Source of the DNA: a virus
Lineage: Duplodnaviria; Caudoviricetes
Virus record (IMG/VR): IMGVR_UViG_3300025030_000109
Span: 1 to 61,372 of that record
Strand: one strand, 5' to 3'
Length of the DNA stretch: 61,372 nucleotides
The first letter of the stretch is position 1, and each line of letters opens with the position of its first letter. Below the pieces are notes generated by a model that saw only the letters and a list, made by a program, of their open reading frames with translations, had not been told where the DNA came from and made no database searches. The translations under genes were made by a program, and so were the position numbers. Positions 32,298 through 46,675 of this stretch are shown here, one piece after another.

Positions 32298-33284
32298 CTA
32301 AATGACCCTTGGAGCATCCAAGGTGAACCTTGCGGCGCCGGCGTGGCCCCCGCCTCCGAACGCTACGGCGACCTCGCTCACGTCGAAACCGAAGCGGGAC
32401 CGGAGCGAGTAATTGCGCTTACCTCCCGGGCGGTCGCAGTAGGTCATGGAGAACGGCGCGTCCGGATAGGCGAGGCAGAGTGCTTCGCCTACTTCGGAGA
32501 TGTTCTCGGAGCAGCAGACGACGGGGATGAGATACTTCTTGCAGTCCGACGGCGAGATACTCGCATTCGGCGAGATGCTCCAGTAGTACGGGTGGTTACG
32601 AAGGCAGCCGTTTATGGCTATGGATTCAGGCGTTGCATGTTTGAACGCCACCCCGTCGTCGATGTGGCAGTGTATCATCTCTGCCGCCTTCACCCTCCCC
32701 TCAATCTGCCGTCTCTGGAAGTCCAGTATCGCCTTCCCCGCATCGTAGGCCAGCGGCATGTAGAAGTCGGCCCACGCCTCGAACTCGAAGGGCATCGTGG
32801 CGATGAAGGCGTTGATCTCCTTGGAGTGCTCCAGCTCAAACTTCCAGAGGTCGCGGTCCTGGACGTAGTGCAGCAGTTTGGGGATTGGCTCCTCGGGGTT
32901 GAAGAAAAGCCAGGAGAGAACGCAGCCGGAGTTTTCGAGGTAGACTCGGACGCCGGAGAAGAGGGGTAACCCATCGACTACTTCGGCTCCGAGGTGGAAG
33001 ATCTCGGGGAACTCTGCGAGTTCGGCCATCGCAGAGCGATGATGATCGATCACCACGGTCGCGGGGAACTTCTCCATGAACTCCCGCAGGACGGGGGCCT
33101 TGTAGCTGAAGTCCAGGATGTAGACCTGGTCGGGGGAGAACTCGTTGAGTTCGGCGTAAGGCGGGTCCTCGCCGTACTGGACCGATTTGAAGAGCATCTC
33201 GTGAGATGCAGAGAGGGCGTGGTGTGCGGCGAAGGCGCTCGCCCAGCCGTCCTGATCTCGATGCCAAAGTACAGCTACTTTCAT
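32298..33284 (-). CDS. DHH/DHHA1 phosphoesterase
   Basis: HxDxDG, ILDFS, IDHH, SLRS, GGGGHAGAA. Confidence 0.9.
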   Translation of the reverse strand: MKVAVLWHRDQDGWASAFAAHHALSASHEMLFKSVQYGEDPPYAELNEFSPDQVYILDFSYKAPVLREFMEKFPATVVIDHHRSAMAELAEFPEIFHLGAEVVDGLPLFSGVRVYLENSGCVLSWLFFNPEEPIPKLLHYVQDRDLWKFELEHSKEINAFIATMPFEFEAWADFYMPLAYDAGKAILDFQRRQIEGRVKAAEMIHCHIDDGVAFKHATPESIAINGCLRNHPYYWSISPNASISPSDCKKYLIPVVCCSENISEVGEALCLAYPDAPFSMTYCDRPGGKRNYSLRSRFGFDVSEVAVAFGGGGHAGAARFTLDAPRVI

Positions 33285-33922
33285 TTTCGCTCCTTCTTTG
33301 GGGTTGTCAGCGCTCGCTCCAGCGGCCAGTTCTTTAGCCTCTGGATGAGCGACGGTAGGCCTATATTTAGTCGGGCGGCCCACTGCGTGAGTGTCAAAGT
33401 TTCGCCGTTGAGTGTGATCCGTCTGCAGTTTCTGGAGTTGTTATTTTGAGTTATGGAGTCTGCCCATCGGCAGTTGCCTGGTTCGTAATTTCCGTCTGAG
33501 TCTATACGATCCAACGTGAAACCCGCAGGGCTAGGACCCATATCAGTATAGAAATTCTTAAACGCTCCCCACCTCGGACTTACCCTGATGCCTCGCCCGC
33601 CGTAGTGATGGTAATCCTGATTCCTCGGGTTGTTGCATCTGTTGCGCATTGAGACCCAAGAATTGTACTCGGGCGCGTTTCTGCGCGGACCTAAGCCTTC
33701 GATGTTTCGCGTGTGCAAGCAGCCGCAGTGGGTAGTGGTGCCTCTAGTCAGCCGAGCTTTAGGCACCATGCGAGTTCCCCCGCAATCACACAAGCAAAGC
33801 CACTCAGCGTGTTGTCGACCTGAAGGCAGCGTCACTTGGTGCATGGTTGTAGCGAGCAACATGCCGAACTTCTGCCCGCTTATCTCTGCACCTTTCTGAT
33901 TCATCCCGAAGTAACCTGCCAC
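33281..33922 (-). CDS. Free-standing HNH-type homing endonuclease
   Basis: WLCLCDCG, HCGC, MRNRC, YGGRGI, LDRIDSDGNYEPGNCRWA. Confidence 0.85.
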   Translation of the reverse strand: MAGYFGMNQKGAEISGQKFGMLLATTMHQVTLPSGRQHAEWLCLCDCGGTRMVPKARLTRGTTTHCGCLHTRNIEGLGPRRNAPEYNSWVSMRNRCNNPRNQDYHHYGGRGIRVSPRWGAFKNFYTDMGPSPAGFTLDRIDSDGNYEPGNCRWADSITQNNNSRNCRRITLNGETLTLTQWAARLNIGLPSLIQRLKNWPLERALTTPKKERK

Positions 33923-33936
33923 TGCTCTGCCTCCTT

Positions 33937-40586: not shown

Positions 40587-41091
40587 TCATGCTTCTCCTT
40601 TCGTAGTAAGCACCCTCGTAGTCGGGGTGAAAGTTGGGGCAGGCGAACTCTCCAAAGAGTTCCCGAGCCTTGCGGTCGTAAGCAAAAGCTGCTTCTATGG
40701 TGGATAGGTATTCCCCAATGTGGGCCTGTTTTCCAGCGTGTGTAATTCTCGCTTCCCACTTTAGGCCGCCTTTCCGTGCGTGGACACCTTTTAGCTTGTG
40801 GGCACTACGTCGACCATTCATCTTATTCTGGCTATTGCTGGCTACACGCAAATTGTGCCGTTGGTTGTTGGTGCCGTCCCCATCTTTGTGGTCGACCAAG
40901 ACTCCATCAGGAGCATCCAAAATCAACCGGTGCATCCTGACCTTGCGACCCACACCTTGCACAAAAATCGTTGTTCGGGCGTACCAGTTGTTGCCGATAC
41001 CTACATAGTGCCACCGGTGCTTGGACACCAAAGCATAATCAGCATCATCTACGAGTGCAATTTTGCCGTGGGTGAGTGGAATTTCTTTCAT
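40579..41091 (-). CDS. HNH-AP2 homing endonuclease
   Basis: IPLTxGKxALVDDAD, MHRLI, VDHKDGDGTNNQRHNLR, AP2 WEARI...AAFAYD...GEFA. Confidence 0.9.
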   Translation of the reverse strand: MKEIPLTHGKIALVDDADYALVSKHRWHYVGIGNNWYARTTIFVQGVGRKVRMHRLILDAPDGVLVDHKDGDGTNNQRHNLRVASNSQNKMNGRRSAHKLKGVHARKGGLKWEARITHAGKQAHIGEYLSTIEAAFAYDRKARELFGEFACPNFHPDYEGAYYERRSMND

Positions 41092-42260
41092 GCTTTGCGG
41101 CCGTTGTGGTGGCATGTGAAGTCGTCGCAGTAACCCTTGCAGAGGAAGTTGGGCGTGCAGGGGAAAACTTCGTCCCGGCACGCTATCTCCATACGATCTG
41201 TGATGCAGTCGATCTTGTCCCAGATACCTGGGATGTCGGCCTTAGTGATAGGCTTCTTCAACCCCACCAGAGCCTTTGCAGGGTCGGCCTCTTTTACAAA
41301 GATAAGCTTGCCATCAGCCTCATCAAACTGCTCACCTAAGTGGAGGTCCGCAAGAGCAACCATAACCTCCACTTGGAAGGGGTCGTCCTTAATCTTCCCA
41401 AACTTCCAGTCGATGTAATTGAGTTTACGATCTTTTATGGCCAGTACGTCGCCCCTGCCTCGAATGTGGACAATTTTATTGTCCCACCAGCCGCAGGGTT
41501 TTTTGTCCTTGGTGCAGCATAGTTCTTTCTCGACGTGGATAGTTGCCCCGGAGCGTATGAAGAAGTCACAGTACCGTTTGACCTTGGGGAGGTATGTGGG
41601 GTCGACAGGCAGGCTCTTGCCTTGCGCGTTCAGCAGGTAGTTCTCCGCAGTCTTATGCCCACGGTTCCCGTCTGCCATCGCCTCCGACTCGACGTACTTC
41701 ACGGTCTTGAAATACTTGGATGCAGCCCATTTACGTGCGCAAAGCATAAACTCCGTCATGCCTGTGTAGCTGGTGGCGAAGTGAGGCTGCGGGTCGATGA
41801 GGCGCTTCTTGGCGAGCACCTGCGGCGCGGACGCGACGAGCGCGTCGAGGTTCAGTCCTAAGTCGAGGTCGAGATTCAAAATTTCCTCCTGGGGTTCAAG
41901 ATCATTAAAAACAAGGGGCTCGGTCTGTCCCGAAGGCACCGACCCGTAGACCTCGACCTGAAGGTCTCCTTTCGGGGGTGACTGCAGGTGCTTAGTCCTC
42001 TGGAAATACTCCTGCACTTTAGCCGGTACGGGCCAGGCACCGGGGCGCAGGGTCGCGGTCTGCACGTCCCTCTGCCAGGTGCGCCACAGGTTCACAGGAG
42101 GCAAGGCGTTCGCCCCGCGGCGGTCGGGGCCTGCGACCAGGTAGCCGCAGCGGTCGGAGACGGGCTTCTTGGACTCCAGCACGTCCGGGAAGGTCAGGGT
42201 GTGGAGCAGGACGGAGGCGGCCGGCGCGGTGCGCTCGGGGGGTAGGACTTCGATGGTCAC
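41088..42260 (-). CDS. Cas4-like PD-(D/E)xK exonuclease with N-terminal extension
   Basis: SYT..CARK, GNRGH, RGRGD, IDWKFGK, C-terminal LCKGYC...C cluster. Confidence 0.8.
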   Translation of the reverse strand: MTIEVLPPERTAPAASVLLHTLTFPDVLESKKPVSDRCGYLVAGPDRRGANALPPVNLWRTWQRDVQTATLRPGAWPVPAKVQEYFQRTKHLQSPPKGDLQVEVYGSVPSGQTEPLVFNDLEPQEEILNLDLDLGLNLDALVASAPQVLAKKRLIDPQPHFATSYTGMTEFMLCARKWAASKYFKTVKYVESEAMADGNRGHKTAENYLLNAQGKSLPVDPTYLPKVKRYCDFFIRSGATIHVEKELCCTKDKKPCGWWDNKIVHIRGRGDVLAIKDRKLNYIDWKFGKIKDDPFQVEVMVALADLHLGEQFDEADGKLIFVKEADPAKALVGLKKPITKADIPGIWDKIDCITDRMEIACRDEVFPCTPNFLCKGYCDDFTCHHNGRKA

Positions 42261-42625
42261 GGCTTCGCCTCCTTCCAGGTGAACGTCACTTTTGCTATGC
42301 CCCAGCAGTTTGCATATGTCTCCTCCTTGCTCACACTCCGCATCACCGGCTGCGGCTTGGGGTGGGTGAAGGTGCCGGTGAGTTTGACTTTTTGATATAA
42401 ATATTTCGCGTGATCAGCAGGCTCTTGCTGATAGATCTCCCCGCGCTGTACCTGCATCCATCTCGTGCCAAGATCAACCTCCACCGTCTCCATCTCGGGC
42501 GGCGGGTTAAGGATGGCGTTAACATCGGCATCAAACTGGAATAGCGCCTCACGATCTCCTAGCGCAAATATTTTGGTTTTGGCTAACTCCACCACTTCCT
42601 TGTACCTCTCTAATTCCGTCTTCAT
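42257..42625 (-). CDS. Hypothetical protein
   Basis: GGAGG RBS; coupled on both sides. Confidence 0.6.
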   Translation of the reverse strand: MKTELERYKEVVELAKTKIFALGDREALFQFDADVNAILNPPPEMETVEVDLGTRWMQVQRGEIYQQEPADHAKYLYQKVKLTGTFTHPKPQPVMRSVSKEETYANCWGIAKVTFTWKEAKP

Positions 42626-43686
42626 ATCTCCTCCCTCCACTCCCTCGCCACCGGCTGGAACGGCACGCCGGCGTCGGTCAGCAGGCTGTACTCGATGGTG
42701 AGGCGCCGGCCGATGTAGTTCGCAGCGTTTCTCAACACCTCGGCTTTCTCCTCGTGGCTCCCAGGTGCCACCGGCCGCACCTCCTTGCCGTCATCGGTGA
42801 GGCAGACGCAGATCACCGTCCCGCTCTTCTCCGCCTGGATGATGTCCTTGACCGTGACCTCCATGTCCAGGAACTCCTTGATCTTGATCAGCGAGTTGCT
42901 CCGGATGCCGTCTTCGTAGGGCGCGTCGTTGGTTCGGAGGATGAGGCCCTCGAAGCGGCGCGCACGCGCCTGGGCGAAAAGGTACGCCTGGTTCTCCTCA
43001 CTCTTGTAGGGCGCGTTCGCCAGAACTGTTGCAGGGGCGTCGGTGCCCCACGCAGGGATCAGATCCGAAAGCTCCAGGTACCGATCCAGAAAGGTATCCA
43101 GAGAGATGAGATCGTAACAGAAGTACTTAAGCTTCAGCGACTCGGGCTGCTGTTTCTTGATCCACGAGCCGATGGTCTGCAATTTCGTCCCGTGGTGGTA
43201 GAGCTCGCCGTCGATGAAGGTCCCCTCGGGGAGCCGGGGCTCCAGGAACTCGGAGACATGGGGGAGCGTGATCGGCTTCCCCTGCCGGCTGTAGAGCAGG
43301 ATCTCGCCGTCCTGCTTGGTGGCGAGGCAGCGATGCCCGTCCAGCTTCAGCTGGAGTACGGCGCCCTCGTGGTTGATCTTCTTGACTTTCTTCAGCGGCT
43401 GCGCCAGCATAGGGAGGGGCAGGCCCATCTGGTTCGTCTTCCCCTGGAGCGCCTCCTCGCGGGTGTCGACGTAGCCTCGGTCCCGCTGGCGGGAGATCCT
43501 GGAGCGGACACGGAGGGCGACCTGCTCGACGATCGATCGGCCGGAGGCATTGGTGGTGACCGTCTCGCTGTGCTCCACCTCCTGACCTCCCTCGACCGTC
43601 GCGTGGGCGATGGTGATGTATGGTCCTGTGGCGCGGATGCGCCAGGTGCCGATGCCGTTTACATGCTTGCGGTACAGGGTGAGCAT
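42622..43686 (-). CDS. ATP-dependent DNA ligase
   Basis: KLDGHR, YSRQG, IDGELY, EGLILR, KIK, C-terminal OB fold. Confidence 0.9.
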   Translation of the reverse strand: MLTLYRKHVNGIGTWRIRATGPYITIAHATVEGGQEVEHSETVTTNASGRSIVEQVALRVRSRISRQRDRGYVDTREEALQGKTNQMGLPLPMLAQPLKKVKKINHEGAVLQLKLDGHRCLATKQDGEILLYSRQGKPITLPHVSEFLEPRLPEGTFIDGELYHHGTKLQTIGSWIKKQQPESLKLKYFCYDLISLDTFLDRYLELSDLIPAWGTDAPATVLANAPYKSEENQAYLFAQARARRFEGLILRTNDAPYEDGIRSNSLIKIKEFLDMEVTVKDIIQAEKSGTVICVCLTDDGKEVRPVAPGSHEEKAEVLRNAANYIGRRLTIEYSLLTDAGVPFQPVAREWREEI

Positions 43687-43699
43687 TTCAATCCTCCTT

Positions 43700-46675
43700 T
43701 TAGAGACTCTTCAAATCGCCCCAAGACTCAGGGCTCAGTTTGGCATCGACGGGGAAGGTGATCGGGAGATCTACACCCCAGGCTTTTTTATAAGGCAGGT
43801 TCGACAGCACATGCTTGAAGGTCTCGGCGGCCTGACGAGCCACGGCGTGCGGGAAGATGAAGAACAGGCCGTCGTGGAGCTCGAAGTAGAAATAGCCGTT
43901 GAACTTGGGGAGCAGGTTGCGCGCTACGGCAAGCGCTAGATATTTCTGGTCTCCACCTGTTCCCTGAATAGGGTAGTTGATGGCGGAACTCTCCATCTCC
44001 CAGGCGTCACGACCCGCCCACGAGCCCAGAAGCTGCACCCTGCGGCCGGCGAAGGTCTCAGCATACCCTAGCTGACGACACTTTGCTATCTGAGTCTGCC
44101 AATAGCCAGAGTTGCAGGCACCGCGGCCTCCGTTCGGGCCACCCGAGACTTTGACGAAGGTCGCCTTGTAGGTGGCGAGGAACTGCTTGACCGCCTCTTC
44201 CTGGATGTCCAGCTCGTAATCGACCCGGGCTTTCTTCGTTGCACTTTTAGAGCCAATTCTGTACTGGAAGCTCAGGTTGCTGTTGGAAATCAGGTAGTTA
44301 GATACAGTGAAGCGATTGCGGGGTCCGGCGTTGGTGATATCGTACACCCTTTTGGTTTGCAGCTTGGAGCACACCATCGCTCCACTATTTGATCCAGAGT
44401 CAGCCCCTTTGAGACGAGATTCTGAACTACGATCTCCGCATACCTGACTTCCGGGTGCATTGTCCGGAGTACGTGATACACATGCTTTCTGGGTATCTGC
44501 TTGCCTCTGTACTCCAGGTACTTGTTTCCACGCTTGTTCTGTAAATTCTCCGCTCTCATCAAAAGCCTCAAGTTCCCCGGCTCGTAGTGGCCATCGTTCT
44601 CTTTCCGGTCGATGTCCAGCTTCAGGTACGTTGGATGTGGTAACTCCTTCAGAACGTAGGCTATCGCCTCCGCTACCGTCTTGAATCTGAACTGAATCCC
44701 ACGCCCTCCGTAGTTCTTGTACGACAGGTCTTTGATGTTCTCGCACCGCTGCTTCATCGCGTTGCACCGCTTCTGCACTCGGGCTACTGCCGCGCTGCTG
44801 ATCATCGCGTGACCCTCGTTGGTATGCCGCATCCGGGTTGCGCACGCCTTGCACTGCGTAGCCTTCCCAGATTTCAGGTTGTCCTTGTTCACCCATAAGC
44901 CGCTGCCGCATTTCGTGCAGAGACAGTCGACCTTCAGGACTTTCCCTTCGCGCATCAAATTCTGCGAGACGATCTTCAGGAACCCGAATTGCGAATTTAC
45001 CATCTCCGGTCTGAGCAAGGCGGCTTCCCGCTGCGGCGGCCTGTCCGAACTGGCACCAACTACCGTCCTCCAGATAAACCATGTGGTCGAGCGTTGCTGT
45101 GAGTCCTGCATACGTGATAGTCTCCTTTTCGCCTTGATACACCGATCCTGTGTGCGCGACGAACTCTACCCCATCCCATACTCTCATGTCAAGAGAAACT
45201 TTCTCTATAGCGACTAGGCCACAGTCAGTCAGAACAAGCTCACCCTCCGCCACGCAGAACTTCCCCAGCTTTCTCTGAAGGTTCGCCTCGGCGTCGTCGG
45301 CCGCCACCCGCTGAATCAGGGTGCGGTAGTCGATCCCCGCGATCTGCGCTCCCATGTAGGAGTGCGCGTCCTCGCCAGGTTCCCGCAGGGAGAGCATGGT
45401 CTCGTCGCCGGACGCGACAGCCATCCAGCCGAACTCTTGGCCGGCGAAGTCGAGCTCCACAAGCGTGTACCCTTCGGGCGGCCTGATCAGGCGCCGAAAG
45501 TCCTTGCCTCGTTTCCACTGGTGCAAGGCGATCCCTGTCGGGAACTCCTCGTTGTTGGTCCCCAAATCCTTGTCGCCCTTGCGCTTCTGGCTGGAACTGT
45601 AGGTCATCCTGGAGCTGTACGTGGAGAAGATCCTGGCACCCGGGCGGACGCAGCCGTCACCGTTGTAGGCCAGGCTCTTCAGCGTCCCCTCGGCGTACTT
45701 GGTGCAGTTCCCCTTAGCCTCGCGCACATCCTTCAAGAGCTTCGCCCTGGGGTCGATGAAAGCGAGCTCGTAGAGCGCGTACTTGTCGGTGCTGGGCGCC
45801 TGAGTCTTCTTGGACACACCCTGGATCGGCAGGCCCCATGTATCGTAGAGGAGCGTAGCCAACTGCTTGGGACTTCCCAGATTCACGAAATTGGTCTCCG
45901 GATTCTCCGCCTGAAGCGTCCGCAGCTGCTTTGCCGTGAGCCCGCTCTCGACGAAACCCATCCCCGGGTTAGCCTCCAACAGCGCGGCACGAGCCTTGTC
46001 TCCATCCTTGAGCAGCTGATCTTTCAGCGCCAGGGCTTTCTCCTTCGACGACTTGATACCCAAGACGTGAGTCTTCGCCACCTGCGGGATGCTCTGCGCC
46101 TCGATGAGCGCCGCGCGCCTCTGCTGAGGCGTCAGGTGACTCCAGAACATCTCTCCCAGGCGCACGGCGAAGCGTGTGTCCTCCTTACACCGGAAGAGGA
46201 GCAGCTTCAACTCCTCGGGATCTCTGGTCTGGAAATTGGTGAAGTCCTTGAACCCTGCCTCGTCCGGGAAGAACTCATGCATGGCGGCTTCCAGCTTGTA
46301 GGACTTCCGCTTGGCCGCCGGCACCTCGTCGCCCTCGGGAGCCACAACCCAATGCTTCCACAGCAACATGGAGTCCAACCACTTCAGCCGGAAGACCAGG
46401 TCCTCAAGACCGAGAGCGACCAGGAAGGCGGCGTCGAAGGCTACGTTCCAGCCGCAGATGTAAAGGTCCTGCGCGAGTATCTGCTCCAGGGAGCGGCGTA
46501 TCAGGTCGGTTTTAGGGTAGAGCTGCCCGACGGATTTCTCACCGAAGGTCCACGCAACTGCGGAGACCCAGGCAGCGCCGGAGCAAGCTCGGAAGGGTTG
46601 CAGAGCGTACTCGGGGAGCGATCCCTGGGTCTCCAGGTCGAAGCCTGCAACCTGCGTGTTGAAGTCTATGTTCAA
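43700..46675 (-). CDS. polA: Family A DNA polymerase (3'-5' exo + pol) containing an intein
   Basis: Exo FDLET, WNVAFD; motif A ELDFAGQE; motif B RKLGKF/SNLSFQY split by intein; AINYPIQG; motif C LHDG. Confidence 0.9.
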   Translation of the reverse strand: MNIDFNTQVAGFDLETQGSLPEYALQPFRACSGAAWVSAVAWTFGEKSVGQLYPKTDLIRRSLEQILAQDLYICGWNVAFDAAFLVALGLEDLVFRLKWLDSMLLWKHWVVAPEGDEVPAAKRKSYKLEAAMHEFFPDEAGFKDFTNFQTRDPEELKLLLFRCKEDTRFAVRLGEMFWSHLTPQQRRAALIEAQSIPQVAKTHVLGIKSSKEKALALKDQLLKDGDKARAALLEANPGMGFVESGLTAKQLRTLQAENPETNFVNLGSPKQLATLLYDTWGLPIQGVSKKTQAPSTDKYALYELAFIDPRAKLLKDVREAKGNCTKYAEGTLKSLAYNGDGCVRPGARIFSTYSSRMTYSSSQKRKGDKDLGTNNEEFPTGIALHQWKRGKDFRRLIRPPEGYTLVELDFAGQEFGWMAVASGDETMLSLREPGEDAHSYMGAQIAGIDYRTLIQRVAADDAEANLQRKLGKFCVAEGELVLTDCGLVAIEKVSLDMRVWDGVEFVAHTGSVYQGEKETITYAGLTATLDHMVYLEDGSWCQFGQAAAAGSRLAQTGDGKFAIRVPEDRLAEFDARRESPEGRLSLHEMRQRLMGEQGQPEIWEGYAVQGVRNPDAAYQRGSRDDQQRGSSPSAEAVQRDEAAVREHQRPVVQELRRAWDSVQIQDGSGGDSLRSEGVTTSNVPEAGHRPERERWPLRAGELEAFDESGEFTEQAWKQVPGVQRQADTQKACVSRTPDNAPGSQVCGDRSSESRLKGADSGSNSGAMVCSKLQTKRVYDITNAGPRNRFTVSNYLISNSNLSFQYRIGSKSATKKARVDYELDIQEEAVKQFLATYKATFVKVSGGPNGGRGACNSGYWQTQIAKCRQLGYAETFAGRRVQLLGSWAGRDAWEMESSAINYPIQGTGGDQKYLALAVARNLLPKFNGYFYFELHDGLFFIFPHAVARQAAETFKHVLSNLPYKKAWGVDLPITFPVDAKLSPESWGDLKSL
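44282..45256 (-). mobile_element. Intein (325 aa) in PolA motif B
   Basis: Block A CVAEGELVLT, block B LTATLDHMV, block F VYDI, block G RFTVSNYLISN followed by Ser+1; removal restores motif B. Confidence 0.9.
44290..45111 (-). CDS. HNH-type homing endonuclease nested in the +1 frame inside the intein
   Basis: 273-codon ORF with CLCTKCG, CKAC, MKQRC, YKNYGGRGI, IDRKENDGHYEPGNLRL; AAGGAG 10 nt upstream of ATG 45111. Confidence 0.85.
   Translation of the reverse strand: MQDSQQRSTTWFIWRTVVGASSDRPPQREAALLRPEMVNSQFGFLKIVSQNLMREGKVLKVDCLCTKCGSGLWVNKDNLKSGKATQCKACATRMRHTNEGHAMISSAAVARVQKRCNAMKQRCENIKDLSYKNYGGRGIQFRFKTVAEAIAYVLKELPHPTYLKLDIDRKENDGHYEPGNLRLLMRAENLQNKRGNKYLEYRGKQIPRKHVYHVLRTMHPEVRYAEIVVQNLVSKGLTLDQIVERWCAPSCKPKGCTISPTPDPAIASLYLTT

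What the first reader, a model, noticed from the sequence alone, without database searches (positions are those of the whole stretch)
44282..45256. Intein whose homing endonuclease is encoded out of frame as a nested, separately translated gene
Seen: PolA is interrupted in motif B (RKLGKF/SNLSFQY) by a 325-aa intein with blocks A, B, F and G. In the polymerase frame the ~200 central residues show no nuclease motif and read like an off-frame translation. The same DNA in the +1 frame (45111->44290, 273 codons) encodes a complete Cys-rich HNH-type endonuclease (MKQRC, YGGRGI, IDRKENDGHYEPGNLR). It has an AAGGAG SD hidden in the intein EKET codons 10 nt before the ATG, and it stops 8 nt before the intein end. 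Both frames stay open over 822 nt. Known: canonical inteins carry the endonuclease in frame, usually LAGLIDADG. Inference: a free-standing HEG invaded a mini-intein and uses splicing to remove its off-frame translation from an essential enzyme, decoupling nuclease dose from polymerase synthesis. I recall out-of-frame intein endonucleases being reported in actinobacteriophages, so novelty may be limited to this lineage and this PolA site.
Basis: partly seen in the sequence, partly recalled or inferred. Interest (0 to 1): 0.92.

Follow-up and report, generated by a model that had tools for sequence, protein, structure and literature searches.

The report
Polymerase intein with nested out-of-frame endonuclease
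A self-splicing protein insert (intein) in this groundwater phage's DNA polymerase gene carries its probable mobility nuclease as a separate gene in a shifted reading frame of the same DNA; the layout is real and kept by selection in many phages, but the kind has been described before.

Summary
The family-A DNA polymerase gene (43700..46675, minus strand) is split in motif B (RKLGKF|SNLSFQY) by a 325-codon intein (45256..44282). A 273-codon ORF (45111..44290) lies inside it in the +1 frame.

- **Nuclease frame:** the nested ORF matches phage HNH-endonuclease families (PHROG E 3e-24). Its model is confident (pLDDT 91.5).
- **Polymerase frame:** only intein residues 1-92 and 297-325 fold, as a HINT domain. 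The centre is unstructured.
- **Conservation:** in all 160 related loci examined (80 viral contigs, 80 bacterial genomes) the nuclease sits in the same +1 frame and the polymerase frame has no stop.
- **Selection:** codon-position variability flips from the intein frame to the +1 frame between about codons 60-90, and back near codon 300.
- **Stop avoidance:** synonymous shuffles of the nested gene give a mean of 9.4 polymerase-frame stops (0 of 400 stop-free).
- **Start signals:** the ATG and Shine-Dalgarno site are built from biased codon choices in conserved intein residues.

Splicing, separate translation and cleavage are inferred, not shown. The nuclease motif has Arg where I-HmuI has its His.

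The kind is already described: a 2025 actinobacteriophage preprint, and the nested P46 inside P45 of phage APSE-1 in RefSeq. This scan has already noted the layout in at least 72 other genomes.

The parts
43700..46675 (-). Family-A DNA polymerase precursor gene (991 codons), one continuous open frame through the intein
   Evidence: ORF list. Pfam DNA_pol_A E 1.6e-28 and PHROG 17 DNA polymerase E 4e-45, each matching in two stretches either side of the insert.
45257..46675 (-). N-extein (473 codons), ending ...QRKLGKF in polymerase motif B
   Evidence: Sequence. Alignment with the intein-less allele P0003.
44282..45256 (-). Intein, 325 codons, Cys1 ... Ser324-Asn325, followed by Ser+1
   Evidence: Sequence. 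C1, T55, H58, D306 and N325 are invariant in 53 aligned relatives. Foldseek hits to solved inteins/HINT domains at probability 1.00.
44981..45256 (-). N-terminal splicing region (intein residues 1-92, blocks A and B; T55 at 45094-45092, H58 at 45085-45083)
   Evidence: pLDDT at least 90. The polymerase-frame third codon position is the most variable in codons 1-60.
44369..44980 (-). Central about 204 codons of the intein in the polymerase frame: unstructured, unconserved 'shadow' translation kept free of stops
   Evidence: pLDDT 42-54 with no secondary structure. Polymerase-frame amino-acid identity 0.12-0.38 against 0.24-0.61 in the +1 frame. Stop avoidance.
44282..44368 (-). C-terminal splicing region (residues 297-325, blocks F and G)
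   Evidence: pLDDT above 90. Coding signature returns to the polymerase frame at codons 301-325. D306, G311 and N325 invariant.
43700..44281 (-). C-extein, starting SNLSFQYRIG (rest of motif B, then motif C)
   Evidence: Sequence. Alignment with P0003. PHROG and NCBIfam polymerase matches at residues 800-980.
44290..45111 (-). Nested gene in the +1 frame: 273-aa HNH-family (I-HmuI-like) homing-endonuclease candidate, stop included
   Evidence: PHROG 374 HNH endonuclease E 3.1e-24 and PHROG 3377 E 1.2e-19. Model pLDDT 91.5. BFVD Foldseek hits to phage HNH endonucleases, best E 5.5e-13. Coding signature in this frame.
45122..45127 (-). Shine-Dalgarno AAGGAG, 10 nt before the nested ATG (45111-45109), written in the intein's E-K-E codons
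   Evidence: Sequence. An SD core is present upstream of the conserved ATG in 36 of 37 and 7 of 9 relatives, against 10.1% background. Glu45 is GAG 28 to GAA 5, against 418 to 500 elsewhere. Tyr49 is TAT 36 to TAC 8, against 192 to 285.
44842..44919 (-). Four-Cys cluster of the nested protein (C65, C68, C87, C90), a probable zinc ribbon
   Evidence: C65 is invariant and C68, C87 and C90 are at least 90% conserved in 55 sequences. That it is a zinc ribbon is inferred.
44566..44613 (-). HNH-like motif IDRKENDGHYEPGNLR of the nested protein (D168, R169, N180; N192 lies just downstream)
   Evidence: R169, Y176 and N180 are invariant; D168 and N192 are at least 90% conserved. The profile aligns weakly (E 0.82) with the DH...NLR...N motif of I-HmuI, 1u3e.
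45163..45192 (-). Promoter-like site (TTGACA, 18 nt spacer, TAGAGT) about 50 nt upstream of the nested ATG; a lead only
   Evidence: Consensus scan: 1 site found against 0.6 expected in shuffles, not significant.

Best explanation
This is a class-1-type intein in motif B of a phage family-A DNA polymerase, with its homing-endonuclease gene overprinted in the +1 frame.

**Proposed mechanism**
- Ribosomes reading the polymerase frame make a 991-aa precursor.
- Intein residues 1-92 and 297-325 fold into a HINT domain, bridged by a stop-free, unstructured loop of about 200 residues. That loop is simply the off-frame reading of the nuclease gene.
- The HINT domain excises the whole insert and joins ...RKLGKF to SNLSFQY..., restoring motif B.
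- Separately, ribosomes start at the internal ATG (45111), behind an AAGGAG written in the intein's own codons. They make a 273-aa HNH-family protein.
- That protein presumably cuts or nicks intein-less polymerase alleles near the motif B codons, so that repair copies the whole element in (homing).

**Shown here**
- The anatomy.
- Selection on each frame in its own segment.
- Avoidance of polymerase-frame stops by codon choice.
- Conserved start signals.
- A patchy distribution of full, mini and empty alleles.

**Inferred, not shown**
- Splicing.
- Internal initiation.
- Nuclease activity and its target.
For: **Intein**
- C1, T55, H58 (block B TxxH), D306, G311 and N325 are invariant in 53 relatives.
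- The model has pLDDT above 90 only at residues 1-92 and 297-325.
- Foldseek against the PDB returns almost only inteins and HINT domains, at probability 1.00: BIL domain 2lwy E 1.2e-3, NpuDnaE 4kl5, RecA mini-intein 5i0a.
- The insert breaks polymerase motif B. Intein-less alleles exist: 77 of the 120 best PolA homologues have an empty site, 27 a full intein and 8 a mini-intein; 7 were unclassified and 1 uncertain, by my regular-expression classification.

**Nested gene**
- PHROG HNH families match at E 3.1e-24 and 1.2e-19.
- The model has pLDDT 91.5.
- 86 BFVD matches reach E <= 0.001, headed by annotated phage HNH or homing endonucleases.
- Free-standing homologues occur in phages and in this same genome.

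**Frame-specific selection**
- On an alignment built in the polymerase frame (53 sequences), the polymerase-frame third position is the most variable in codons 1-60 and 301-325 (0.62-0.68).
- In codons 91-300 the first position, which is the nuclease third position, is the most variable (0.53-0.71).
- On the nuclease-frame alignment the differences at positions 1, 2 and 3 are 0.45, 0.40 and 0.64. Amino-acid identity is 0.436 in the nuclease frame against 0.225 in the polymerase frame.

**Stop avoidance**
- Window: 0 polymerase-frame stops against a mean of 9.4 in shuffles, with 0 of 400 shuffles stop-free. The same holds in all 77 sequences tested (the window plus 76 viral loci), while the third frame matches expectation.
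- T-ending codons precede AA/AG/GA codons 0 of 3650 times, against 21.8% elsewhere.
- The free-standing paralogue in this genome has 8 stops in the equivalent frame. Four free-standing phage homologues have 18-50.

**Same layout elsewhere**
- The nuclease is in the +1 frame in 80 of 80 viral loci (one of them, L043, is a mini-intein with only a weak match) and in 80 of 80 bacterial-genome loci. It is also so in Streptococcus, Shewanella, Caulobacter, Gardnerella and APSE-1 phages.
- In the bacterial set, 0 loci have a polymerase-frame stop and 2 have a stop in the nuclease frame.

**Start signals**
- An ATG lies at +146 in 37 and at +134 in 9 of 55 relatives.
- Tyr49 is TAT 36 to TAC 8, against 192 to 285 elsewhere, p 2e-8.
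- An SD core is present in 36 of 37 and 7 of 9, against 10.1% background. Glu45 is GAG 28 to GAA 5, against 418 to 500, p 3.6e-6.
Against: - **No experiment:** nothing here shows splicing, a +1 product or cleavage.
- **Curated models see neither part:** Pfam and NCBIfam find nothing in the window's intein or nested ORF. Pfam matches 0 of 53 inteins, and 1 of 55 nested proteins weakly matches HNH_3.
- **Weak matches to solved structures:** the profile searches give E 0.21 for the intein and E 0.82 for I-HmuI. Foldseek of the nuclease model against the PDB gives nothing at E <= 0.001.
- **Missing penultimate His:** the window's intein has Ser324 before Asn325 where most relatives have His.
- **Missing catalytic His:** the nuclease motif has an invariant Arg (R169) where I-HmuI has His, in the weak alignment. 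Free-standing homologues share this, so catalysis by the usual HNH mechanism is not assured.
- **Start not settled:** 9 of 55 relatives lack an ATG at either conserved position. A second Met (M37) lies just before the homology core, so the true start is open.
- **N-terminus not selected as nuclease:** the first roughly 30 residues of the nested protein overlap block B and show the intein's coding signature, not their own. Their confident fold in the model may be an artefact.
- **Controls from other genomes:** the four free-standing controls come from other, mostly more AT-rich phages.
Confidence: 0.85

Rival explanations
1. The nested protein is conserved but is not a working homing nuclease. 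It could be a DNA-binding or nicking-deficient relic, or a protein with another role, because its HNH-like motif lacks the usual catalytic His.
For: - R169 is invariant where I-HmuI has His, in the alignment.
- No PDB fold match for the whole model.
- Only 1 of 55 members touches Pfam HNH_3.
Against: - The Arg is shared by the free-standing homologues annotated as HNH or homing endonucleases, so it is a family trait and not decay.
- Strong purifying selection acts on the +1 frame.
- The patchy full, mini and empty distribution among close polymerases, and insertion at several different polymerase contexts, fit active mobility.
- The alignment to I-HmuI is weak (E 0.82), so the residue equivalence is itself uncertain.
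Confidence: 0.08
2. The nuclease is not separately initiated. It is made when a fraction of ribosomes slip +1 out of the polymerase frame, giving an N-extein / N-intein / HNH fusion.
For: - No direct evidence on initiation.
- 9 of 55 relatives lack the conserved ATG.
- Translation of the polymerase frame passes through the internal ribosome-binding site.
Against: - In most loci the +1 frame is closed by a stop only 1-18 codons upstream of the conserved ATG. The stop-to-stop starts lie at +91 to +142 in most rows, leaving little room for a shift site.
- An ATG plus SD is conserved, through biased synonymous codon choice, in 46 of 55 relatives.
- I did not look for a conserved slippery motif.
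Confidence: 0.05
3. The insert is not removed by protein splicing. It is either tolerated inside the polymerase, like the ShiLan hidden-HNH insertion in a methylase, or removed at the RNA level.
For: - Pfam and NCBIfam see no intein.
- A precedent exists for an out-of-frame HNH insertion without splicing domains (PMC11855218, abstract and section 4 read).
Against: - All class-1 catalytic positions are invariant.
- The two ends fold as a HINT domain.
- The insert sits inside catalytic motif B of an essential enzyme.
- The polymerase frame is kept open by selection, which RNA splicing would not require.
Confidence: 0.02
4. The frame offset is an assembly or sequencing artefact, and the true intein has an in-frame HNH domain.
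For: None found.
Against: - The same +1 offset is seen in 160 of 160 related loci from independent samples and isolates.
- Two compensating indels would be needed.
- Logan contigs of the probable source sample agree with 0 differences over 44036-45600.
- The coding signature changes frame gradually at both ends.
Confidence: 0.005

Closest known systems
Non-canonical actinobacteriophage inteins with the homing endonuclease in a separate reading frame (Gosselin, Arsenault and Gogarten, bioRxiv 10.1101/2025.01.02.630785; abstract, sections 8 and 15, and passages read)
   Same: - A contiguous intein whose splicing domain is in the host frame, while the endonuclease is a second ORF on the same strand in another frame between the splicing blocks.
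- The in-frame centre forms no recognisable structure.
- The proposed origin is invasion of an intein by a free-standing endonuclease gene.
   Different: - Their same-strand case is an 'endonuclease VII-like' ORF 'in reading frame 3'. Here the ORF is in frame 2 (+1) and belongs to a longer I-HmuI-like, Cys-rich HNH family.
- Their hosts are actinobacteriophage proteins; the polymerase they list is DNA polymerase III alpha. Here the host is a family-A polymerase of a groundwater phage.
- They call such layouts rare. Here 441 IMG/VR stretches and 143 bacterial-genome stretches encode relatives of the intein.
- I did not test homology with their sequences, and their supplementary tables were not opened.
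Phage APSE-1 P45 DNA polymerase with nested P46 (RefSeq NC_000935; genome paper van der Wilk et al. 1999, not held, so recalled only through citations)
   Same: - A homologous intein: N-terminal 101 residues 39% identical, E 1e-14.
- A homologous nuclease ORF in the same +1 frame inside it.
- RefSeq annotates P46 as 'HNH endonuclease' nested in P45.
   Different: - A different polymerase family and insertion site (...GGKS|C ... HN|CENI).
- About 26% nuclease identity.
- I could not read whether the 1999 paper discussed the nested gene as the intein's endonuclease.
ShiLan-type hidden HNH insertion in a mycobacteriophage methylase (PMC11855218; abstract and section 4 read)
   Same: An out-of-frame HNH ORF inside a host gene whose own frame stays stop-free across the insertion.
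   Different: - ShiLan has no detectable splicing domain and is thought to stay in the protein, with no Shine-Dalgarno site.
- Here a HINT domain flanks the ORF, and a Shine-Dalgarno site plus ATG are conserved.
Fractured genes: split inteins with a free-standing endonuclease gene between the halves (Dassa et al. 2009, PMC2677866; search listing and abstract seen, plus its description in the 2025 preprint)
   Same: An intein and a separately translated endonuclease gene occupy one locus, and the model is invasion of an intein by a free-standing endonuclease gene.
   Different: There the host gene is broken into two genes and spliced in trans. Here the polymerase frame is continuous through the nuclease gene.
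Canonical bifunctional inteins (in-frame LAGLIDADG or in-frame HNH domains; as summarised in the 2025 preprint, section 8)
   Same: The nuclease coding sequence lies between block B and block F, and homing into an empty allele is the presumed life cycle.
   Different: The nuclease is not part of the intein polypeptide. The intein's own centre is a non-functional shadow translation.

Membership tests
Intein (class 1, HINT fold) | N-terminal Cys/Ser nucleophile at the first residue | tested here: met
   Cys1 (45256-45254), invariant in 53 of 53 aligned relatives.
Intein (class 1, HINT fold) | Block B Thr-x-x-His | tested here: met
   T55 and H58 are invariant. That this is the defining block B motif is recalled knowledge.
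Intein (class 1, HINT fold) | C-terminal Asn followed by a Cys/Ser/Thr +1 residue | tested here: met
   N325 is invariant. The +1 residue is Ser in the window and Cys or Ser in the relatives.
Intein (class 1, HINT fold) | Penultimate His in block G | tested here: not met
   The window has Ser324 (LISN). Its closest relatives have F, S or A there, while most of the family has HN. From memory this His is common but not universal among active inteins.
Intein (class 1, HINT fold) | HINT fold | tested here: met
   AlphaFold2 model with pLDDT above 90 at residues 1-92 and 297-325. The top Foldseek PDB hits are inteins or BIL domains at probability 1.00, target-normalised TM-score 0.42-0.51.
Intein (class 1, HINT fold) | Match to curated intein models (Pfam, NCBIfam) | tested here: not met
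   0 families for the window's intein, and 0 of 53 relatives match any Pfam family at E <= 0.01.
Intein (class 1, HINT fold) | In-frame insertion at a conserved site, with intein-less alleles | tested here: met
   Inserted in polymerase motif B. P0003 (83% identical) reads RKLGKFSNLSFQY. 77 of the 120 best homologues have the empty site.
Intein (class 1, HINT fold) | Protein splicing activity | not testable with these tools
   Needs expression of the precursor.
HNH / His-Me finger homing endonuclease | Match to family profiles | tested here: inconclusive
   PHROG 374 and 3377 'HNH endonuclease' match at E 3.1e-24 and 1.2e-19. Pfam gives nothing for the window, and only 1 of 55 relatives matches HNH_3, at E 0.0033.
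HNH / His-Me finger homing endonuclease | Catalytic His after the conserved Asp (DH) | tested here: not met
   Invariant Arg169 (IDR) aligns with the His of I-HmuI's DH in a weak profile match, E 0.82. The same Arg is found in free-standing homologues. The role of that His is recalled.
HNH / His-Me finger homing endonuclease | Conserved Asn residues of the motif | tested here: met
   N180 is invariant and N192 at least 90% conserved. They align with NLR...N of I-HmuI.
HNH / His-Me finger homing endonuclease | Fold similarity to known members | tested here: inconclusive
   BFVD gives 86 matches at E <= 0.001, the best to annotated phage HNH endonucleases (E 5.5e-13). These are predicted structures with names by annotation. 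The PDB gives no match at E <= 0.001.
HNH / His-Me finger homing endonuclease | Site-specific DNA cleavage and homing | not testable with these tools
   Only indirect support: the patchy allele distribution and several insertion contexts.
Out-of-frame-endonuclease inteins of Gosselin et al. 2025 | Endonuclease ORF on the same strand, in another frame, between the splicing blocks of a contiguous intein | tested here: met
Out-of-frame-endonuclease inteins of Gosselin et al. 2025 | Endonuclease VII-like ORF in 'reading frame 3' | tested here: not met
   Here the ORF is in frame 2 (offset 145 nt). The best families are HNH; PHROG 1035 'endonuclease VII' matches only at E 3.3e-6. Jerseyvirus phages do have the other frame.
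Split intein / fractured gene | Host gene broken into two separately translated halves | tested here: not met
   One continuous 991-codon frame.

The most novel reading that the evidence does not exclude
This is not a rare accident. It is one member of a large, old lineage of inteins that never carry their nuclease in frame.
- The intein and an I-HmuI-like 'DR-variant' HNH gene have co-evolved as an overprinted pair.
- The nuclease's Shine-Dalgarno site and ATG are hard-wired into conserved intein codons (E45 as GAG, Y49 as TAT).
- The nuclease's codon choice is constrained to keep the essential host frame free of stops.
- The pair has hopped between several polymerase families, and other genes, in phages of many bacterial phyla.
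- It is invisible to Pfam-based annotation.

To my searches this family-wide picture is not in print. What is in print is the 2025 actinobacteriophage cases and a nested ORF annotated in APSE-1.
Probability: 0.6. Interest if true: 0.6.

Novelty: new member of a known kind. Interest (0 to 1): 0.45.

Why it matters
- **Annotation:** polymerases of this kind are deposited as 'DNA polymerase', 'endonuclease' or two split genes. In the records I opened the nested nuclease is unannotated, with APSE-1 the exception.
- **Overlapping genes:** it is a clean natural case. One frame needs only to stay open while the other is under amino-acid selection. The switch-over points are mapped to about 30 codons, and the codon-level cost is measurable.
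- **Origin of inteins:** it supports the 'splicing domain first, nuclease invades later' view. It also shows that nuclease and splicing domain can stay together for a long time without ever being one polypeptide.
- **Practical use:** these inteins tolerate an arbitrary unstructured loop of about 200 residues. That suggests scaffolds for insertion-tolerant engineered inteins.

Tried and rejected
- **Curated models:** Pfam and NCBIfam on both frames gave nothing for the intein or the nested ORF. Membership therefore rests on motifs, folds and PHROGs.
- **Solved structures:** sequence-profile searches gave only weak hits, E 0.21 for a DnaE intein and E 0.82 for I-HmuI. Foldseek of the nuclease model against the PDB gave nothing at E <= 0.001.
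- **Close relatives of the nuclease:** The search for related loci with the single nuclease protein found only 1 distant locus. The alignment query worked.
- **DNA of the named alleles:** The DNA of the intein-less allele P0003 and of the mini-intein allele P0002 could not be fetched, so the homing site and the deletion boundaries are known at protein level only.
- **Shuffle run:** the first shuffle script timed out. It was rerun with 400 shuffles per locus.
- **Rows dropped:** L010, L029 and L043 (cut by contig ends, or mini-intein) and L048 (nested frame interrupted) were left out of the shuffle test. The loci were dereplicated at 90% nucleotide identity to 55. L073 and L084 (tblastn end not at the intein end) were left out of A3 and.
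- **Expression:** no RNA holder was listed for the stretch, and the one RNA run laid gave no cover. This says nothing about expression.
- **Promoter scan:** one site upstream of the nested ATG, not more than chance. I did not test its conservation.
- **1999 APSE-1 paper:** not held.
- **Not done:** I did not open supplementary files of any paper. Supplemental Table 1 and the supplemental figures of the 2025 preprint may list polymerase cases that bear on novelty. I did not test homology between this nuclease and the preprint's endonuclease VII-like ORFs, and I did not search for a slippery site for the frameshift rival.
- **Considered and rejected:** sequencing error, split intein, and a functional in-frame centre, for the reasons given under the rival explanations.

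Full report
**What is there.** The window is a complete viral record of 61,372 bases (CheckV 99%) from a groundwater metagenome. On the minus strand a 991-codon ORF (43700..46675) encodes a family-A DNA polymerase. Its Pfam, PHROG and NCBIfam matches fall in two stretches either side of a 325-codon insert.

The insert begins with Cys (45256) right after ...QRKLGKF. It ends Ser-Asn (44282) right before SNLSFQYRIG. A polymerase 83% identical in the exteins reads RKLGKFSNLSFQYRIG without interruption (P0003). The insertion point is therefore exact and lies in motif B.

Inside the insert, 145 nt after its start and so in the +1 frame, an ATG at 45111 opens a 273-codon ORF. It stops at 44292-44290, 8 nt before the insert ends. 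AAGGAG lies 10 nt before the ATG.

**The two frames code for different things.** The +1 ORF matches PHROG families annotated as HNH endonuclease (E 3.1e-24 and 1.2e-19). Pfam and NCBIfam see nothing in either frame.

With an alignment of 55 relatives, the nested protein folds with mean pLDDT 91.5. Its nearest predicted viral structures are phage HNH or homing endonucleases (86 matches at E <= 0.001, best 5.5e-13). It has no significant match among solved structures.

The polymerase-frame reading of the insert is confident only at residues 1-92 and 297-325. The roughly 200 residues between have pLDDT 42-54 and no secondary structure. The confident ends match solved inteins and HINT domains at probability 1.00. 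Across 53 relatives C1, T55, H58, D306, G311 and N325 are invariant. That is the catalytic outfit of a class-1 intein, as I recall its definition.

**Relatives show the layout is selected, not accidental.**
- A search of IMG/VR with an intein alignment found 441 stretches encoding a relative. In the 80 kept, the nuclease hit is in the frame one base after the intein frame in 80 of 80. One of them, L043, is a mini-intein with only a weak match.
- A scan of species-representative bacterial genomes found 143 stretches, mostly Bacillota, with some Actinomycetota, Synergistota, spirochaetes and Proteobacteria. In the 80 kept the offset is again +1 in 80 of 80. None has a polymerase-frame stop and 2 have a stop in the nuclease frame.
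- Isolated phages of Streptococcus, Shewanella, Caulobacter and Gardnerella, and APSE-1, have the same layout.
- After dereplication at 90% nucleotide identity, 55 sequences remained.

**Frame-specific selection.** On an alignment built in the polymerase frame, which if anything favours that frame, the codon-position pattern flips along the insert.
- In codons 1-60 and 301-325 the polymerase-frame third position is the most variable (0.62-0.68). Polymerase-frame identity there is 0.53-0.79.
- In codons 91-300 the first position is the most variable (0.53-0.71). That position is the third position of the nuclease frame. The +1 translation is there more conserved than the polymerase-frame one (0.24-0.61 against 0.12-0.38).
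- An alignment built in the nuclease frame gives the same answer.

**The polymerase frame is kept open by codon choice.**
- Shuffling synonymous codons within the window's nested ORF gives a mean of 9.4 polymerase-frame stops, and none of 400 shuffles is stop-free. The observed number is 0.
- The third frame has 21 stops against 19.4 expected.
- All 77 sequences tested (the window plus 76 viral loci) behave this way.
- Mechanistically, a stop arises only when a T-ending nuclease codon precedes a codon starting AA, AG or GA. That happens 0 of 3650 times in the 55 sequences, although T-ending codons make up 21.8% before other codons.
- A free-standing paralogue in this same genome (33281..33934, minus strand) has 8 stops in the equivalent frame. 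Four free-standing phage homologues have 18-50.

**Start signals are written into the intein.**
- In 37 of 55 sequences an ATG sits at +146, spanning the conserved Tyr49 and a following G. In 9 more an ATG sits at +134.
- Where Tyr49 is followed by G it is TAT 36 times and TAC 8 times, against 192 to 285 for the same context elsewhere in these polymerase genes (p 2e-8).
- A Shine-Dalgarno core lies upstream in 36 of 37 and 7 of 9, against 10.1% background.
- Glu45, which supplies GAGG, is GAG 28 times and GAA 5 times, against 418 to 500 elsewhere (p 3.6e-6).
- In most loci a +1-frame stop lies shortly upstream of the ATG, which leaves little room for a frameshift origin of the product.

Internal initiation is thus the best-supported route, but it is inferred. 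9 of 55 lack either ATG, and a second Met (M37) lies just before the homology core.

**Life cycle.** By my regular-expression classification, the 120 best polymerase homologues comprise 77 with the empty site, 27 with a full intein and 8 with a mini-intein (114-181 residues before block F). Another 7 were unclassified and 1 was uncertain. A 74%-identical polymerase carries a mini-intein at the very same site, with a near-identical N-terminus (P0002).

The family sits in several polymerase motif B contexts and in non-polymerase-looking contexts. Some polymerases carry two copies. This patchiness fits the homing cycle of invasion, decay and loss. Because the overprinted layout is shared by all relatives, the mini-inteins are more likely deletion derivatives than ancestors.

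**Caveats.**
- The window's intein lacks the penultimate His, having Ser324, as do its closest relatives.
- In the nuclease, an invariant Arg (R169, IDR) stands where I-HmuI has the His of its DH pair. This rests on a weak profile alignment, E 0.82. Free-standing homologues share it. Nuclease chemistry is therefore not assured by sequence.
- The first roughly 30 residues of the nested protein overlap block B and carry the intein's coding signature, not their own.
- Logan contigs of the probable source sample agree with the window with no difference over 44036-45600. That is the same sample.

**Comparison with what is known.**
- Four full-text searches found two works from one laboratory. [quoted passage not shown] The second is a paper on an out-of-frame HNH insertion without splicing domains.
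- The window differs in nuclease family, frame (+1) and host gene. The principle is the same.
- RefSeq annotates an 'HNH endonuclease' P46 nested in the intein-bearing polymerase P45 of phage APSE-1. I show that pair to be homologous to the window's pair, in the same +1 frame. I could not read the 1999 genome paper.
- Jerseyvirus phages of Salmonella carry a related intein with the same nuclease family in the other (-1) frame. The overprinting therefore arose, or shifted, more than once.
- This scan has already noted the layout in at least 72 other genomes, with follow-up verdicts like mine.

**Verdict.** The feature is real and its reading is well supported. It is a new member of a kind already described. 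The family-wide picture (size, age, embedded start signals, stop avoidance) goes beyond what I found in print and is the part worth carrying forward.

Noticed in passing
window 33281-33934 (-): A free-standing paralogue of the nested nuclease (32% identity, E 1.4e-11). It has the same Cys cluster, YGGRGI and LDRID motifs, and has 8 and 13 stops in its two other frames.
   Followed up: partly
L087-L089 (Salmonella Jerseyvirus phages SE2, VT223, YMFM0293): A related polymerase intein carries the same nuclease family in the -1 frame instead of +1. In SE2 the polymerase is annotated as two CDS, and in VT223 the whole gene is named 'endonuclease'. The nested gene is not annotated in any of the three.
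   Followed up: partly
L056, L058, L060 (IMG/VR contigs): One polymerase ORF holds two inteins of this family about 1.3 kb apart, each with its own +1 nuclease hit.
   Followed up: no
L030, L035, L039, L045 (IMG/VR contigs): The same intein family sits in a different extein context (...GKAD|C...N|CLVLDF...) that does not look like polymerase motif B. This suggests a switch of host gene.
   Followed up: no
L048, L094, L130: The nested nuclease frame is interrupted by a stop while the polymerase frame stays open. These are candidates for decaying endonuclease genes.
   Followed up: no
P0002, P0007, P0026, P0045, P0067, P0072 (polymerase homologues): The same polymerase family carries other inteins at two further sites: FSTY|CVPG... 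and PIQG|CLQAG... . P0007 and P0067 have Pfam LAGLIDADG_3 and Intein_splicing hits, and P0007 has two different inteins in one gene.
   Followed up: no
window 44031-44065: Logan contigs of the source sample branch here, in the C-extein. Short contigs of higher depth and a loose end suggest strain variants or a repeat.
   Followed up: no
window 42622-43686 (-) and 41088-42260 (-): Directly downstream of the polymerase lie an ORF with the look of an ATP-dependent DNA ligase and a 390-aa ORF ending in a Cys cluster. Both are named by eye only.
   Followed up: no
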